Source: a virus. Taken from it: a stretch of DNA of 64,000 bases. The notes under the pieces are model-generated. The model worked only from the letters and a program-made list of their open reading frames with translations. It was not told the DNA's origin and did no database searches. Every line of letters starts with the position of its first letter. Position 1 is the first letter of the stretch. Where the stretch lies: the IMG/VR virus record IMGVR_UViG_3300022602_000001; one strand, given 5' to 3'. A program made the translations under genes and the position numbers. Of the stretch, positions 29,642 through 53,553 are shown piece after piece.

Positions 29642-30059
29642 AAAGTTACATATGCTAAAGACCAGAAAAGTCCAGAGAAAAATTTCAATGGAAAATTTGT
29701 TCATGAAGTTGGCAATAGATCCCAGACCAAACAATGTTAGGCTGATTGATTTTCCCCTAAAGGTGAAGACTCCCCACGGCTACAAACAAATAGTCAATTT
29801 GTTCACCACTGAAAAACAAAAGAGGGTCACAACCTACTTCTCAAATGGAAAAACTCTGACCAGTTCAAACCAGCACTTGCTAAAAGTGGGAGAGGAGTGG
29901 AAAAAAGTCGAAGAGCTGCACAAGGGAGACTATGTGACAACAGAAAAGGGAACAACAAAAATAACAAAAAAAGTGCACCTCAAGAATGACAAAGTCCTCT
30001 ACGACATGTCCGTTGACGAGGTCCACTGTTATTATTCAAACGGGTTGCTCTCGCACAAC
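29456..30059 (+). mobile_element. Atypically split mini-intein (IntN 61 aa, IntC 136 aa) in the helicase Walker A motif
   Basis: Cys1; block B-like LTSSNQHLL; block F VLYDMSV; terminal SHN followed by Ser+1. Confidence 0.88.
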
Positions 30060-30830
30060 TCCTGGTGTTTGATAAATTTGGGAGCAGCAGCAGTTAAGGC
30101 GGGATACACGGTCTGCCACTACACTCTTGAACTGTCGGAGGACTACGTTGGAAAGAGGTATGACGCCATATTTACGGGAATTGATGCTCAGCAGATACAC
30201 CTACACAAGGACAAGGTGGCCGAAGCAATAGAAAAGCTTCCCGGAAAGCTGATCATAAAAGAGTACCCCATGGGAAAGGTTGGACCAAACACCATTGAGT
30301 CCCACATTCAGAAGTGCAGAGACCTCAAGCACCCTCCCAATCTCGTTATAATAGACTACGTGGACCTTTTGAAGAGCAAAACAAGGTCCATAGATCCAAA
30401 GGACGCCATAGATGACGTGTACACTGCGGTGAAGGGGCTGGCAAGAGAGCTAAAAATACCAATATGGACCGTTTCCCAGGTTAATCGCATGGGTTCTAAG
30501 GACGATGTTATTGAGGGAGACAAGGCTGCAGGATCCTACAACAAGATGATGATCGCGGACTTTGCCATGTCTTTGTCAAGAAAACGTCAGGACAAGGTGA
30601 ACGGCACTGGCAGGATCCACATAATGAAGAACAGGTACGGTGGAGATGGAATGACGTACGGTGCAAGAGTAAACACTCATAACGGATCGATTGAAATAAA
30701 CAGCGAAGAAATTGGAGATGAAGATTTAACATTTGACACTGGCCAAAAACAGCCCTTTCAGGGAAAAACAATGTTCACCCTGGACGAGAAGAGCTACCTG
30801 AACAAAAAATTCACAGAGCTGATTGGCTAG
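29652..30830 (+). CDS. Split-intein C-fragment fused to C-terminal half of DnaB-like helicase
   Basis: ...GLLSHN|SWCLINLG, then HYTLELSE, IIDYVDLL, WTVSQVNR, KNRYG helicase motifs. Confidence 0.9.
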   Translation: MLKTRKVQRKISMENLFMKLAIDPRPNNVRLIDFPLKVKTPHGYKQIVNLFTTEKQKRVTTYFSNGKTLTSSNQHLLKVGEEWKKVEELHKGDYVTTEKGTTKITKKVHLKNDKVLYDMSVDEVHCYYSNGLLSHNSWCLINLGAAAVKAGYTVCHYTLELSEDYVGKRYDAIFTGIDAQQIHLHKDKVAEAIEKLPGKLIIKEYPMGKVGPNTIESHIQKCRDLKHPPNLVIIDYVDLLKSKTRSIDPKDAIDDVYTAVKGLARELKIPIWTVSQVNRMGSKDDVIEGDKAAGSYNKMMIADFAMSLSRKRQDKVNGTGRIHIMKNRYGGDGMTYGARVNTHNGSIEINSEEIGDEDLTFDTGQKQPFQGKTMFTLDEKSYLNKKFTELIG

Positions 30831-50699: not shown

Positions 50700-50868
50700 C
50701 TAAAAATAAAATGTGAAGACTAAAAAAATAAACTTTTTTCATTCATCCGCATTGTATACTTTTACTCTATAATAGCAACTAATAGATCTTTGAAAATAAA
50801 GACAATAAACTTACACGTAAGGGATTGTGAGCCAGCCGAAAGGTTGCAATTACTCACTTTCCCAGGAA

Positions 50869-50986
50869 ATTTTGATGAATAGCAAGGACCAGCGTTACTT
50901 CGCGTGCATGGTGCACAATTTTTATGTTAAAAAAATACAGAGGTTCAATTCCTCCTGAAACGCTACCAATTTTCTTTCATCTAAAT
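50869..50986 (+). ncRNA. Y-RNA-like scaffold copy 1 with tRNA-like arms
   Basis: gatgaa-T-ag/ct-ttcatc bulged stem and agcgtt/aacgct inner stem enclosing a hairpin, a 7-nt-loop hairpin (atGTTaa) and a T-arm (gagg-ttcaatt-cctc). Confidence 0.65.
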
Positions 50987-50987
50987 C

Positions 50988-51060
50988 GTTCCCGTCGTCT
51001 AATGGTCAGGACAGCCCCCTTTCACGGGGCAAATTTCGGTTCGAGTCCGTGCGTGGAACA
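50988..51060 (+). tRNA. tRNA-Glu(TTC)
   Basis: gcccc-ctTTCac-ggggc; ggttcgagtcc T-arm. Confidence 0.85.
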
Positions 51061-51069
51061 CAAAAATTC

Positions 51070-51143
51070 GGAGTAGTGGTTGAATGGTTTACAACACCGG
51101 CTTGTCGCGCCGTGAGGTGGGGGTTCGAGTCCCCCTTATTCCG
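51070..51143 (+). tRNA. tRNA-Asp(GTC)
   Basis: ggagtag/ttattcc acceptor, G73; ttGTCgc loop. Confidence 0.85.
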
Positions 51144-51160
51144 CCTTGACTTTTTTAAAC

Positions 51161-51237
51161 GTATTCGTATAGGCTCTGTCTCATAAACAGTTGAAACCTT
51201 AACAGGTTACATGAGAGTTCGATTCTCTCCGAATACA
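51161..51237 (+). tRNA. D-armless tRNA-like RNA, anticodon CAT, long variable arm
   Basis: gtattcg/cgaatac acceptor; only 7 nt where the D-arm belongs; ctgt-ctCATaa-acag; gagag-ttcgatt-ctctc. Confidence 0.7.
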
Positions 51238-51262
51238 CTCTGGACTTTTTGAAATAAAGACA

Positions 51263-51397
51263 TTAGTCATAGTAATAGAAAGCGTTTCATCGTGTGGGTT
51301 CGATTCCCATTTTTTGCGACTGCAAAAATAGCCAAATGGTTAAGGCACCAAATTCGTAATTTGTAAAACAAACACGCTCCTAAAATTTCTTGACTAA
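51263..51397 (+). ncRNA. Y-RNA-like scaffold copy 2 containing a circularly permuted tRNA (anticodon CGT)
   Basis: T-arm, loop-closed acceptor stem, D-arm and anticodon arm in that order, inside a ttagtca-T-ag/ct-tgactaa stem. Confidence 0.8.
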
Positions 51398-51410
51398 ATT
51401 ATTTGATCAC

Positions 51411-51483
51411 AGCTGGTGGGAGGTAAGGTATCTCGTTGGTCTCATAAGCCAAAATAACCCCGTTCGATTCGGGGACGCAGCAA
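51411..51483 (+). tRNA. tRNA-Met(CAT), initiator-like
   Basis: ttggt-ctCATaa-gccaa; ccccg-ttcgatt-cgggg; mismatched first acceptor pair. Confidence 0.72.
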
Positions 51484-51502
51484 CTAAAGTGAAGTAAAGT
51501 AC

Positions 51503-51757
51503 AATCTAGAGCAGCAGTACCCATAGGGCAACATTGCGTACCCCTGAATTGACAGGCCGTTTATTGAAACAGATAAGCGTGGTGGGATTTCTACCTGCGA
51601 ATGGCCAGTCGCTACTACTGGTGTCTGAGTGGGTGTAATTAACCTTTCCTCCCGAAGTGGGAGGCTTACTGTACGTGCTGGTACAGACAGGGATAATACC
51701 TTGATGGAAGGAGCCGGTTAATTACCGTATTACCGTAGCAGGCTGCTGCTCTAGATT
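51503..51757 (+). ncRNA. Unidentified 255-nt structured ncRNA
   Basis: Perfect 15-bp terminal stem aatctagagcagcag/ctgctgctctagatt; internal 10-bp stem and multiple hairpins; flanked by tRNAs. Confidence 0.75.
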
Positions 51758-51758
51758 T

Positions 51759-51830
51759 GGCGCCGTAGTTCAAAGGCAGAACATTTGGCTCATATCCAAA
51801 AGGTTGAGATCTCAGAATTCTCCGGCGCCA
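51759..51830 (+). tRNA. tRNA-Met/Ile2(CAT)
   Basis: ggcgccg/cggcgcc acceptor; tttgg-ctCATat-ccaaa; atypical T-loop. Confidence 0.8.
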
Positions 51831-51956
51831 CGAAGAGCATGAAGGCCACATGATCGTAGATCCTCTCAGCCTCTCAACGATGCACACTGTAGAGCCAGAC
51901 CGTAGGCTGGATGAGTTGACAACTTACTCACTGACTTTAGAAAAGTTGTAAATTTT

Positions 51957-52029
51957 GCCTGAATAACTCAATTGGTAGAGTATCTCATTTGTAATGAGAA
52001 GGTTGCGGATTCGATTTCTGCTTCAGGCT
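51957..52029 (+). tRNA. tRNA-Thr(TGT)
   Basis: gcctgaa/ttcaggc acceptor; tctca-ttTGTaa-tgaga. Confidence 0.9.
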
Positions 52030-52057
52030 CAAAAATAGCAGCATTGCTGCTTTTCAT

Positions 52058-52132
52058 GCGACAGTCGTATAATGGTCATTACTCCATCCTTCCAAGTTGG
52101 AGATGAAGGTTCGATTCCTTTCTGTCGCTCCA
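52058..52132 (+). tRNA. tRNA-Gly(TCC)
   Basis: gcgacag/ctgtcgc acceptor with encoded tCCA; ctTCCaa loop. Confidence 0.9.
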
Positions 52133-52158
52133 GTGGACTTTTTTGAAATTGGTCAATT

Positions 52159-52232
52159 GATCCCATAGCTCAACTGAACAGAGCAATTGCCTTCTAAGCA
52201 ATAGGTTTCCAGTTTGAATCTGGATGGGATCA
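52159..52232 (+). tRNA. tRNA-Arg(TCT)
   Basis: gatccca/tgggatc acceptor; attgc-ctTCTaa-gcaat. Confidence 0.9.
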
Positions 52233-52247
52233 CTTTAAAAATGAAAC

Positions 52248-52574
52248 ATGACAGCAAGAGAGTTGAAGGACCACATTCTAAATTACATGACGGCAGAGGA
52301 GGCTCTTGAGAGGCTCATTGCGTCCACTGTGAAAAATTTAAACGAAGAAGAGGAAAGTTCCCATGAAAGAATCTACCTCGAGGAGGACCAGGAATCTGAA
52401 TTAGACGAGACAGACACCGAATTGCCCAACTACAATTCTCCCTACTTTGAAATAATTACTGCAGCAAAGAAGCTGGGCTGGGACATAGCGATTCAAGGGG
52501 ACAAGGACTTTGTGAGAGGGATATCGATAGGCACGGCTGAGTACTTGGACGAGAACATAAAACATACAACATGA
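52248..52574 (+). CDS. Acidic hypothetical protein
   Basis: 108-aa ORF inside the tRNA island. Confidence 0.65.
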   Translation: MTARELKDHILNYMTAEEALERLIASTVKNLNEEEESSHERIYLEEDQESELDETDTELPNYNSPYFEIITAAKKLGWDIAIQGDKDFVRGISIGTAEYLDENIKHTT

Positions 52575-52792: not shown

Positions 52793-52921
52793 CTGGCGGG
52801 TGGTGAAAAGCTACATGGTGGCTGGGTAAACACACCTCATAGTCTCTGAGGCGCGGAACAGGAAATAGATTGCAATTGCCGTTGAATCCCCGCTTGTTGG
52901 TTCAAGCCCAACCTCGCCAGC
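52793..52921 (+). ncRNA. Oversized tRNA-like RNA (8-bp acceptor, expanded D-loop and variable arm)
   Basis: ctggcggg/ctcgccag; cctca-tagtctc-tgagg; gttgg-ttcaagc-ccaac. Confidence 0.7.
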
Positions 52922-53091: not shown

Positions 53092-53553
53092 ATGGATAGA
53101 ACATTTAAAACACTGAGCAACAGCGCAGTTGTGGATTTGGTGCCCTACACAAAGCAGTACATTGAAAATTTTCCCGATACTGAAATACTAATAGGGTGCG
53201 ACTCTCAAAACAGAAAAACTGAGACCGTCTATGCAATAGTTGTTGGATTTTACAAGCCAGGAAAGGGCGCGCATGTGGTGTACTCAAGATTCAAAAATCA
53301 AAGAGAGAAGGACAACGTGGGAAGGCTTTTGAACGAGGTGTGGAACTCAGTTCAGGTTGCTGAAGTTTTAAAAAATGAAGTTGGAATCCACACAAAGTGG
53401 ATAGACATAGACCTAAATCCCGACCCCAAGTACAAGTCGAACGCGGCGCTGTCCAGCGCAGTGGGAATAGTAACAGGAATGGGGTACAACGTCAGGCACA
53501 AGGGCAATTCTCCAATAATGACGTACGCAGCAGACTCTCTCGTAAAATTTTAA
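53092..53553 (+). CDS. RNase H-like YkuK-family protein
   Basis: IGCDSQ, RLLNEVW.S, IDIDLN, YAAD motifs. Confidence 0.8.
   Translation: MDRTFKTLSNSAVVDLVPYTKQYIENFPDTEILIGCDSQNRKTETVYAIVVGFYKPGKGAHVVYSRFKNQREKDNVGRLLNEVWNSVQVAEVLKNEVGIHTKWIDIDLNPDPKYKSNAALSSAVGIVTGMGYNVRHKGNSPIMTYAADSLVKF

What the first reader, a model, noticed from the sequence alone, without database searches (positions are those of the whole stretch)
51263..51397. Complete circularly permuted tRNA (anticodon CGT) embedded in a Y-RNA-like stem
Seen 5'->3': T-arm gtggg-ttcgatt-cccat (51294-310); acceptor 3' strand tttttgc, loop gact, acceptor 5' strand gcaaaaa (51311-28); U8A9; D-arm gcc-aaatggttaa-ggc; anticodon arm caaa-ttCGTaa-tttg (to 51363). 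The tRNA is opened at its variable loop and attached to a long stem (agcgt/acgct; ttagtca-T-ag / ct-tgactaa) whose bulged end resembles the Ro60-binding helix of Y RNAs (GGUCCGA/UUGACU). Known: bacterial YrlA RNAs are permuted tRNA mimics in which the Ro-binding stem replaces the anticodon arm. Here the anticodon arm is retained, a topology I do not recognise. Inference: an unchargeable decoy for anticodon nucleases, a Ro60 adaptor, or a precursor that cleavage and ligation could mature into tRNA-Thr(CGU). Standard tRNA scanners would probably miss it.
Basis: partly seen in the sequence, partly recalled or inferred. Interest (0 to 1): 0.9.

Follow-up and report, generated by a model that had tools for sequence, protein, structure and literature searches.

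The report
Whole permuted tRNA on Y-RNA handle
This 135-base phage RNA gene encodes a complete tRNA shape written in rearranged order with its amino-acid end sealed, on a base-paired handle that in sister phages lies beside the gene for the RNA-binding ring protein Ro60, so it is most likely a new variant of the tRNA-mimicking Y RNAs, one that also displays an anticodon.

Summary
Window 51263-51397 holds, in order, a T arm, a closed 7-bp acceptor hairpin, a D arm and an anticodon arm (CGT), enclosed by two outer helices.

- **tRNA test.** Rearranged in silico, it passes ARAGORN as tRNA-Thr(CGU) in 87 of 90 junction choices.
- **Membership.** A covariance model built only from five homologues in other metagenomes hits it at 65.8 bits (next best in the window: 23).
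- **Covariation.** Across nine such elements, 97% of cells pair and 16 of 20 pairs show compensatory changes.
- **Handle.** Its conserved motifs (UAGUAA, UUCAUCG, UUCU) recur with other cargoes. Handles lie on the tRNA strand in 7 of 7 Ro60-positive sister loci and in 0 of 19 Ro60-negative ones. All four assessable homologues of this element lie within 0.5-2.2 kb of a Ro60 gene on the same strand.
- **Gap.** This window has no Ro60 gene.
- **Anticodon.** The loop keeps U33 and R37, but the triplet changes even between near-identical relatives.

Most likely this is a Y-RNA-type adaptor that displays an unchargeable, anticodon-bearing tRNA mimic. It is not a member of Rfam YrlA. The scan had already met this handle on the same genome (copy 1, e1-5725794). 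Verdict: new variant of a known kind.

The parts
51263..51269 (+). Handle, outer helix S1, 5' strand
   Evidence: It pairs 7/7 with 51391-51397. The sequences differ completely in homologues, yet pairing is 100%.
51270..51280 (+). Handle internal loop, 5' side, starting with the conserved hexamer UAGUAA
   Evidence: The same hexamer, or a one-letter variant, opens this loop in every handle found.
51281..51285 (+). Handle, inner helix S2, 5' strand
   Evidence: It pairs 5/5 with 51374-51378 and covaries in homologues. Copy 1 of the window uses the same S2 letters.
51286..51293 (+). Conserved junction motif UUCAUCG(U) leading into the cargo
   Evidence: A U(U)AC(A/U)UCG or UUCAUCG motif sits at this place in all handles, whatever the cargo.
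51294..51310 (+). T arm: 5-bp stem and a 7-nt UUCGAUU loop
   Evidence: G53-C61 is invariant, and 4 of 5 pairs covary across 9 sequences.
51311..51328 (+). Acceptor stem closed into a hairpin: 3' strand, 4-nt loop 51318-51321, 5' strand. Predicted RNase P site between 51321 and 51322.
   Evidence: It is a perfect 7 bp, and 6 of 7 pairs show double changes across 9 sequences. The RNase P site is inferred from M. smegmatis YrlA (PMC4201824).
51329..51347 (+). U8 A9, D arm (3-bp stem, loop with A14 and G18 G19) and position 26
   Evidence: U8, A9, A14, G18 and G19 are invariant in 9 sequences. The middle D pair covaries between C-G and U-A.
51348..51364 (+). Anticodon arm: 5-position stem and 7-nt loop, anticodon CGT at 51355-51357
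   Evidence: All 5 stem pairs covary. U33 and R37 are invariant, while the triplet varies.
51365..51373 (+). Junction strand, A-rich, ending in the conserved ACAAAC-type motif
   Evidence: It is conserved at this position across handles.
51374..51378 (+). Handle, inner helix S2, 3' strand
51379..51390 (+). Handle internal loop, 3' side, A/U-rich and ending in the conserved UUCU
51391..51397 (+). Handle, outer helix S1, 3' strand
50872..50975 (+). Sister copy of the same handle with a different cargo (a hairpin plus a T-arm-like hairpin)
   Evidence: It is homologous to L001:6455-6559, which lies 1.1 kb upstream of a TROVE gene.

Best explanation
The element is a gene for a small non-coding RNA of the Y-RNA kind, built from two modules.

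Module 1 is a handle. It has two short helices formed by the 5' and 3' ends, separated by conserved internal-loop sequences. In sister phages it is always encoded beside a Ro60 (TROVE) gene, so it is presumably what Ro60 holds.

Module 2 is a cargo: a full tRNA fold in circularly permuted order (T arm, acceptor stem capped by a 4-nt loop, D arm, anticodon arm). The handle leaves the fold at the variable-loop position, where class II tRNAs carry their long extra arm, so the L-shape can form. As transcribed, the RNA has no free CCA end and cannot be charged.

It most likely works as an adaptor. It shows a tRNA-shaped surface, including a genuine anticodon loop, to a protein that reads tRNAs, and so couples that protein to Ro60. 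By analogy with known Ro60-Y RNA complexes, it would also couple it to a 3'-5' exonuclease such as PNPase. Because the triplet is the fastest-changing part between close relatives, the anticodon is probably the specificity element. This fits a bait for anticodon-specific host factors such as anticodon nucleases.

Shown here: the fold and its conservation, the shared handle, the handle-Ro60 synteny in relatives, and the variable triplet. Inferred: Ro60 binding, the partner protein, and any processing by RNase P.
For: 1. The rearranged sequence is called a tRNA by ARAGORN in 87 of 90 junction choices. It is the only permuted-order hit in the 64 kb.
2. Homologues with the same order of arms were found in independent metagenome contigs: L027, L054/L160/L175/L179, L178, L181, L173 and L164/L171/L172.
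3. In six hand-segmented elements, 195 of 198 helix positions form standard pairs, and both handle helices change completely in sequence.
4. On nine model-aligned cores, 97.2% of cells pair against 65.8% in shuffles (0 of 500 reach it). 16 of 20 pairs change on both sides. Slid controls give 30-43%.
5. The leave-one-out model scores the window element at 65.8 bits, E 7e-16, against 23 bits for the next hit in the window. Junctions of tandem normal tRNAs in other loci reach at most about 55 bits.
6. The handle motifs recur with other cargoes: small hairpins, T arm plus acceptor hairpin only, a YrlA-like T-acceptor-D set, a D-anticodon-T set without acceptor, and a whole normal tRNA.
7. TROVE reading frames of 518-573 aa lie in the contigs of L027, L010, L026, L095 and L001. 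The permuted elements of L027, L160, L178 and L181 lie 0.5-2.2 kb from one on the same strand. Handles lie on the tRNA strand in 7 of 7 TROVE-positive loci and in 0 of 19 TROVE-negative loci.
8. L010:4195-4256 gives a partial Rfam YrlA match of 28 bits over the tRNA-like core.
9. U8, A14, G18 G19, the UUC of the T loop, A58, U33 and R37 are invariant.
10. In the near-identical trio L164/L171/L172, only 9 of 77 columns vary. Two of them are in the anticodon and none in the 44 columns of the T arm, D arm and anticodon stem.
11. Published precedent: bacterial and phage YrlA RNAs are closed-acceptor permuted tRNA mimics encoded within 4 kb of Ro60 on the same strand (PMC4201824). A phage Ro60 binds phage Y-like RNAs and host PNPase (PMC12135203).
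Against: - No TROVE homologue exists anywhere in this 64-kb window (tblastn with five phage TROVE proteins). In the closest relative, L001, the gene sits between the tRNA cluster and the RNase H-like gene. In the window that slot holds a 108-aa reading frame, a small reading frame and an odd tRNA-like sequence.
- The window element gives no Rfam YrlA or Y RNA match at E up to 10.
- The bacterial GNCGAA(N)G Ro60 motif is absent, and only a UCG core is shared.
- Ro60 binding, expression and RNA ends are untested.
- The whole-element fold z-score is modest, -1.9.
- The sample for the fast-changing-triplet argument is small.
Confidence: 0.62

Rival explanations
1. It is a precursor of a working two-piece tRNA. 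RNase P cuts the capped acceptor hairpin at 51321/51322. The 3' side is trimmed and receives CCA. The two pieces stay together through the acceptor stem and the handle, and the product is charged and used in translation, or by a synthetase-dependent sensor.
For: - The acceptor stem is a perfect 7 bp stacked on a 5-bp T stem. This is the feature that makes M. smegmatis YrlA an RNase P substrate that is CCA-tailed in vivo (PMC4201824; 10.1101/312249).
- The window element has G1-C72, C2-G71 and a GU-ending anticodon. By my own knowledge of E. coli tRNA identity, these match tRNA-Thr.
- In none of the five assessable loci does a normal tRNA carry the same anticodon as the permuted one. For example, the window has Thr(UGU) while the element has CGU, and L027 has no normal Thr tRNA in 20 kb.
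- L178 encodes CCA right after the discriminator base.
Against: - Nearly identical bodies carry anticodons of different amino acids: UAG, GUG and UUG in L164/L171/L172, and UGU versus UGA in L027/L054. Acceptor or discriminator bases do not change with them, so correct charging of all of them is unlikely.
- The non-overlap of anticodons is not significant. I estimate roughly a 1 in 8 chance, and the loci are partial.
- The same handle carries cargo that is not a tRNA at all.
- A handle of about 45 nt on the variable side has no known ribosome-competent precedent.
Confidence: 0.12
2. It is a free-standing tRNA decoy that works without Ro60. The handle only stabilises the RNA or directs its excision from the long tRNA-cluster transcript, and the capped tRNA soaks up a host tRNA-cleaving or tRNA-modifying enzyme.
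For: - No Ro60 gene lies in 64 kb around two handle RNAs.
- The element lies inside a cluster of about 22 tRNAs and other odd tRNA-like RNAs.
- The triplet varies within a conserved anticodon loop.
Against: - The handle and the TROVE gene co-occur strictly in sister loci: 7 of 7 against 0 of 19.
- The conserved single-stranded motifs of the handle look like a protein-binding site, not a mere clamp.
- Ro60 may lie outside the window or be supplied by the host.
Confidence: 0.15
3. It is a decaying relic of a tandem tRNA duplication: the 3' half of one copy followed by the 5' half of the next, with no function. The flanking helices are chance.
For: A tandem duplication followed by loss of the outer halves would give matching acceptor strands automatically. 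The whole-element fold z-score is only -1.9.
Against: - The same architecture occurs in at least eight further distinct sequences from other samples.
- Compensatory changes occur in every helix, including both flanking helices.
- The loop motifs are conserved.
- The leave-one-out score is 65.8 bits.
Confidence: 0.02
4. It is a local misassembly joining two tRNA genes.
For: The window comes from a metagenome, and the only run holding all of it may be its own source.
Against: - One contig of the source run covers 50800-51801 without a difference at depth 38.
- Independent assemblies from other studies hold homologues with the same order of arms.
Confidence: 0.01

Closest known systems
YrlA RNAs (Rfam RF02553) of bacteria and mycobacteriophages, including S. 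Typhimurium YrlA, whose tRNA-like domain structure is solved
   Same: - A terminal stem formed by both ends.
- A permuted order of T arm, closed acceptor hairpin and D arm.
- The universal tRNA tertiary nucleotides.
- For the homologues, a position within a few kb of a Ro60 gene on the same strand (PMC4201824).
   Different: - YrlA has no anticodon loop. Its terminal stem takes the place of the anticodon stem (10.1101/312249). Here a separate anticodon arm is kept and the handle leaves at the variable region.
- The handle has other conserved motifs and no GNCGAA(N)G.
- There is no Rfam match for the window element.
- There is no Ro60 gene in the window.
M. smegmatis YrlA
   Same: Its 7-bp acceptor-like stem makes it an RNase P substrate. 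It is cut and CCA-tailed in vivo, and the halves stay bound to Ro60 (PMC4201824). The window element also has a 7-bp acceptor stem.
   Different: Processing of the window element is untested. The M. smegmatis RNA has no anticodon arm.
D. radiodurans Yrn1
   Same: It is a Y RNA that can be drawn with a possible anticodon arm between D-like and T arms, with the Ro60-binding stem in place of the acceptor (PMC4201824). Sister cargoes L026:617, L027:1123 and L095 have this normal-order layout.
   Different: Yrn1 is not permuted and has no acceptor hairpin. Its loop has 6 nt. The window element has all four arms and a canonical 7-nt loop.
Circularly permuted tRNA genes of unicellular algae and Thermofilum pendens
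   Same: The 3' half is encoded upstream of the 5' half, and a short spacer joins the acceptor strands (PMC3978253).
   Different: - Those mature through a bulge-helix-bulge motif, the splicing endonuclease, ligation to a circle and reopening at the acceptor.
- The 2014 review lists them only from six algae and one archaeon.
- Here there is no such motif. The handle has 11/12-nt and 8/9-nt internal loops, and the same handle also carries non-tRNA cargo.
Two-piece tmRNA from permuted ssrA genes (Keiler et al. 2000, as cited in PMC3978253)
   Same: It is a bacterial precedent for a permuted tRNA-like gene whose transcript is cut into two pieces that stay base-paired and expose a chargeable acceptor end.
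   Different: tmRNA has no anticodon arm, is charged with alanine and works on stalled ribosomes. No such role is shown here.
Thermus phage phiLo Yrl1 and Yrl2 with phage Ro60
   Same: They are phage-encoded Y-like RNAs upstream of a phage Ro60 gene. They bind Ro60 and assemble with host PNPase (PMC12135203).
   Different: They were identified through a CGAA motif and are not described as carrying a full tRNA fold. The TROVE protein of the closest relative (L001) is only about 25% identical to phiLo's.

Membership tests
YrlA (Rfam RF02553) | Covariance-model score at or above the gathering score of 69 bits | tested here: not met
   No YrlA match at E up to 10 in window 51100-51960. The best relative, L010:4195-4256, reaches 28 bits over the core only.
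YrlA (Rfam RF02553) | Permuted order of T arm, closed acceptor-like hairpin and D arm, enclosed by a stem of the two ends | tested here: met
YrlA (Rfam RF02553) | The terminal stem occupies the anticodon-stem position and there is no anticodon loop | tested here: not met
   A separate 5-position stem with a 7-nt loop lies at 51348-51364, and the handle leaves between the anticodon arm and the T arm. The YrlA feature is taken from 10.1101/312249.
YrlA (Rfam RF02553) | GNCGAA(N0-1)G motif near the 5' end | tested here: not met
   The 5' strand carries UAGUAA and UUCAUCGU instead. The motif definition is from PMC4201824.
YrlA (Rfam RF02553) | Encoded within about 4 kb of a Ro60 gene on the same strand | tested here: not met
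   Not met in the window. Met for homologues L027, L160/L175/L179, L178 and L181.
Y RNA (functional class: Ro60-bound small RNA) | Physical binding to Ro60 | not testable with these tools
   Only synteny was tested: handles in 7 of 7 TROVE-positive loci and 0 of 19 TROVE-negative loci.
Y RNA (functional class: Ro60-bound small RNA) | A long stem formed by both ends, with a conserved protein-binding part, plus a variable effector module | tested here: met
   The handle is conserved across at least five cargo types.
tRNA (Rfam RF00005) | A contiguous cloverleaf scoring at or above 29 bits | tested here: not met
   The normal-order reading 51322-51407 scores 24 bits. ARAGORN and the Rfam gathering scan skip it.
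tRNA (Rfam RF00005) | All four arms with the universal tertiary nucleotides and a canonical anticodon loop | tested here: met
   The rearranged sequence passes ARAGORN. U8, A14, G18 G19, UUC, A58, U33 and R37 are present.
tRNA (Rfam RF00005) | Free 5' end and a 3' CCA end that can be aminoacylated | tested here: not met
   As encoded, the acceptor stem is closed by a 4-nt loop, 51318-51321. Opening by RNase P was not tested.
Circularly permuted tRNA genes (algal and archaeal type) | 3' half upstream of 5' half, with complementary acceptor strands | tested here: met
Circularly permuted tRNA genes (algal and archaeal type) | A bulge-helix-bulge motif formed by leader and trailer for the splicing endonuclease | tested here: not met
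   The handle is 7 bp, an 11/12-nt loop, 5 bp and an 8/9-nt loop. It has no 3-nt bulge, 4-bp helix, 3-nt bulge arrangement. The motif definition is from PMC3978253.
Circularly permuted tRNA genes (algal and archaeal type) | Maturation through a circular intermediate to a one-piece tRNA | not testable with these tools
   No RNA data: no RNA holder was listed.

The most novel reading that the evidence does not exclude
After RNase P opens the capped acceptor hairpin and CCA is added, the RNA becomes a two-piece but complete tRNA that stays on its Ro60 handle. Such a leashed tRNA could be charged, bind a synthetase, EF-Tu or the ribosome, and so couple Ro60-exonuclease action, or a sensing step, to a chosen codon or anticodon. 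The phage could re-aim it by changing three bases.
Probability: 0.08. Interest if true: 0.95.

Novelty: new variant of a known kind. Interest (0 to 1): 0.7.

Why it matters
The partner that the tRNA-like domain of bacterial Y RNAs recruits has been unknown since 2014. This variant keeps a canonical anticodon loop and changes its triplet between near-identical relatives. That points to partners that read anticodons, such as anticodon nucleases, synthetases or modification enzymes, and it gives a direct handle for pull-downs.

It is also, to my knowledge, the first complete circularly permuted tRNA fold reported from a bacterial virus. Permuted tRNA genes were listed only from algae and one archaeon (PMC3978253).

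The handle carries interchangeable tRNA parts in uncultured freshwater phages, including a 635-kb phage. Phage Ro60 systems may therefore deploy panels of tRNA mimics, which bears on the contest between phages and tRNA-targeting host defences.

Tried and rejected
- **Rfam.** At gathering and at E up to 10, nothing but tRNA matches on the element.
- **blastn against cultured phages.** Window 50900-52300 gave only ordinary tRNA matches.
- **blastn against the first 27 loci.** The element gave only T-loop matches.
- **Strict DNA patterns.** Two found nothing in viral contigs because their gaps were too narrow.
- **Permuted-order ARAGORN scan.** It mostly reports chimeras of adjacent normal tRNAs and must be filtered against normal calls.
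- **Model R1.** It also scores tandem tRNA junctions up to about 55 bits, so it cannot be used alone.
- **Whole genome and contigs.** I therefore could not look for Ro60 beyond the 64 kb. Earlier scan notes on neighbouring windows mention none.
- **Expression.** No RNA holder was listed for 50800-51900.
- **Contigs of two other runs.** They carry the first about 35 and last about 35 bases of the element unchanged but leave its middle uncovered, so they say nothing about it.
- **The 701-aa reading frame after the RNase H-like gene.** I considered it as a possible substitute partner, but it matches virion structural protein families.
- **The 108-aa reading frame in the Ro60 slot.** It has no family.
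Rejected, because the stem sequence is not conserved.
- **Bulge-helix-bulge motif.** None present.
- **Anticodon-anticodon pairing with a target tRNA.** The complements of the nine triplets do not form a consistent set, so I dropped the idea.
- **MAFFT alignment A1 of whole elements.** It misaligned the handle, so I segmented the helices by coordinates instead.

Full report
**1. What is in the sequence**

The window is phage-like. All genes lie on the + strand. They include a tail sheath, family A DNA polymerase, ribonucleotide reductase, thymidylate synthase and a chaperonin. A cluster of about 22 tRNA genes lies at 48.8-53.0 kb.

From 5' to 3' it has:
- an outer helix of 7 bp and an inner helix of 5 bp;
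- a T arm;
- an acceptor stem of 7 perfect pairs, closed by a 4-nt loop;
- U8 A9 and a D arm with A14 and G18 G19;
- an anticodon arm with a 7-nt loop (U33, CGT, A37).

RNAfold recovers this layout, but the z-score is only -1.9. ARAGORN and Rfam skip the element. The normal-order reading gets 24 bits, below the tRNA threshold. Joining 51322 onward to the stretch ending at 51318 gives a sequence that ARAGORN calls tRNA-Thr(CGT) in 87 of 90 junction choices. A scan of the whole window in permuted order, on both strands, gave this one hit.

**2. Relatives**

Twenty-seven related phage loci were fetched through the RNase H-like gene at 53092-53553. The permuted scan of these loci mostly returned chimeras of neighbouring normal tRNAs. 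It also returned a clear homologue in L027 and a YrlA-like relative in L010.

Reading these showed a common frame: an outer helix, the hexamer UAGUAA, an inner helix, a U(U)AC(A/U)UCG or UUCAUCG motif, the cargo, an ACAAAC-type motif, the inner helix, an A/U-rich stretch ending in UUCU, and the outer helix.

The cargo differs from copy to copy:
- small hairpins;
- a T arm plus acceptor hairpin only;
- a T-acceptor-D set with an extra hairpin, as in YrlA;
- a D-anticodon-T set without an acceptor stem;
- a whole normal-order tRNA (L001:6326);
- the complete permuted set.

The window holds a second copy of the frame at 50872-50975 with another cargo. Pattern scans of viral and metagenome contigs added further complete permuted elements. 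L054 (identical in L160, L175 and L179), L178 and L181 are on the same frame. L173 and the trio L164/L171/L172 are on other frames.

**3. Is the structure selected?**

I segmented six elements by coordinates. In them, 195 of 198 helix positions form standard pairs. Both handle helices are completely different in sequence from one element to the next.

A covariance model built from five cores, without the window, finds window 51294-51364 at 65.8 bits, E about 7e-16. The next hit in the window scores 23 bits. In the other loci, junctions of tandem tRNAs reach at most about 55 bits, so the model is helpful but not sufficient alone.

On nine model-aligned cores:
- 97.2% of cells pair, against 65.8% in shuffles (0 of 500 reach it);
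- 16 of 20 pairs change on both sides;
- slid controls give 30-43%.

This alignment was fitted to the model, which favours the structure somewhat. The hand segmentation agrees with it. The universal tertiary nucleotides, U33 and R37 are invariant. This rules out a pseudogene relic or chance.

**4. The link to Ro60**

The TROVE profile finds reading frames of 518-573 aa in the contigs of L027, L010, L026, L095 and L001. The permuted elements of L027, L160/L175/L179, L178 and L181 lie 0.5-2.2 kb from such a gene on the same strand. L173 and the L164 trio sit on contigs too short to judge.

A rule-based handle finder sees handles on the tRNA strand in 7 of 7 assessable TROVE-positive loci and in none of 19 TROVE-negative loci. 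A 635-kb uncultured phage, whose TROVE protein is 36% identical to that of L001, has two handles directly upstream of that gene. This meets the published criterion for YrlA genes, within 4 kb and on the same strand (PMC4201824).

The window is the exception. tblastn with five phage TROVE proteins finds nothing in 64 kb. The slot that holds the gene in L001 contains other things here. The rest of the genome could not be reached.

**5. How it compares with known RNAs**

YrlA RNAs are closed-acceptor permuted tRNA mimics, but they lack the anticodon loop. Their terminal stem stands where the anticodon stem would be (10.1101/312249). In the window element the anticodon arm is kept. The handle leaves at the variable region, which is geometrically the place of a class II extra arm.

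The window element does not match the Rfam YrlA model and lacks the GNCGAA(N)G motif. It is therefore not a YrlA member, although it probably works like one.

The algal and archaeal permuted tRNA genes depend on a bulge-helix-bulge motif and the splicing endonuclease (PMC3978253). The handle has no such motif, and it also carries cargo that is not a tRNA.

**6. Mechanism**

The anticodon loop keeps its canonical frame, but the triplet differs among the nine elements: CGU, UGU, UGA, UGA, CAA, AAU, UAG, GUG and UUG. In the near-identical trio, 9 of 77 columns vary. Two of them are in the anticodon and none in the 44 columns of the T arm, D arm and anticodon stem. L027 and L054 share the anticodon stem and differ at position 36.

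Bodies that stay the same while the triplet moves between amino-acid families argue against correct charging. They argue for a displayed anticodon as a specificity element. I therefore favour an adaptor or bait that presents a whole, uncharged tRNA shape to an anticodon-reading partner while the handle holds Ro60. By analogy with the D. radiodurans, Salmonella and phiLo complexes, the handle would also hold an exonuclease (PMC4201824, PMC12135203).

The 7-bp acceptor stem makes RNase P opening and CCA addition plausible, as in M. smegmatis YrlA (PMC4201824). No locus has a normal tRNA with the same anticodon. So a two-piece working tRNA is not excluded, but I rate it low. None of these steps is shown. 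No RNA data were available.

**7. Assembly**

A contig of the probable source run covers 50800-51801 without a difference. This is not independent support. The independent support is the set of homologues from other studies.

**8. Verdict**

The element is a real, selected RNA element and a new variant of the tRNA-mimicking Y RNAs. It has a complete permuted tRNA fold with a variable anticodon, on a handle family that is not in Rfam. An earlier follow-up in this scan (e1-5725794) reached the same reading for copy 1 of this window. I saw that note, after deriving the shared frame, its variable cargo and the Ro60 link myself.

Noticed in passing
window 50872-50975: A second copy of the same handle (hexamer UAGCAA, the same inner-helix letters as the main element). 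Its cargo is a GC hairpin, an A/U-rich stretch and a T-arm-like hairpin. It is homologous to L001:6455-6559.
   Followed up: partly
window 51161-51237: A tRNA-like gene with anticodon CAT. It has full acceptor and T arms and a long variable arm, but only about 4 nt where the D arm should be. Rfam tRNA scores it at 31 bits, and ARAGORN misses it.
   Followed up: no
window 51503-51757: A roughly 255-nt stretch closed by a 13-bp helix between two CAT tRNAs, with no Rfam match. Contigs of two other runs replace 51534-51605 and 51637-51731 with other letters while keeping the rest. This suggests exchangeable side arms.
   Followed up: partly
window 51830-51957 and L001:7190-7310: The spacer between a CAT tRNA and tRNA-Thr(TGT) shares a conserved block with the closest relative. 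It may be another small RNA.
   Followed up: no
window 52793-52921: A 129-nt tRNA-like sequence with long complementary ends and a T arm. It sits where the closest relative has its Ro60 gene.
   Followed up: no
L001:6322-6440 (also L002, L004, L006): A complete normal-order tRNA, called Asp(atc) by ARAGORN with one acceptor mismatch, is embedded inside the same handle. The handle motif runs straight into base 1 of the tRNA.
   Followed up: partly
L010:3606-3730: A tRNA(CAU)-like RNA with a 7-bp acceptor stem and an encoded ACCA end. The two handle motifs lie inside it, in swapped order, where the D arm should be. It is a circular permutation of the usual handle-cargo arrangement.
   Followed up: no
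L164:1040-1260, L171, L172: A third frame carrying a complete permuted tRNA, preceded by a lone D-arm-like hairpin and followed by a 7-bp hairpin. The three copies differ almost only in the anticodon (UAG, GUG, UUG) and the acceptor loop.
   Followed up: partly
window 51294-51317: The T-arm hairpin followed by the T-rich acceptor strand is flagged as terminator-like by the consensus scan. If it acts as a terminator, some transcripts would end inside the element.
   Followed up: no
window 29652-30830: A DnaB-like helicase reading frame with HINT/intein matches at residues 43-136. It is probably an intein-containing helicase.
   Followed up: no
L027 (tRNA cluster): ARAGORN calls one tRNA with anticodon CTA, an amber-reading type, among the 22 tRNAs of this sister phage.
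   Followed up: no
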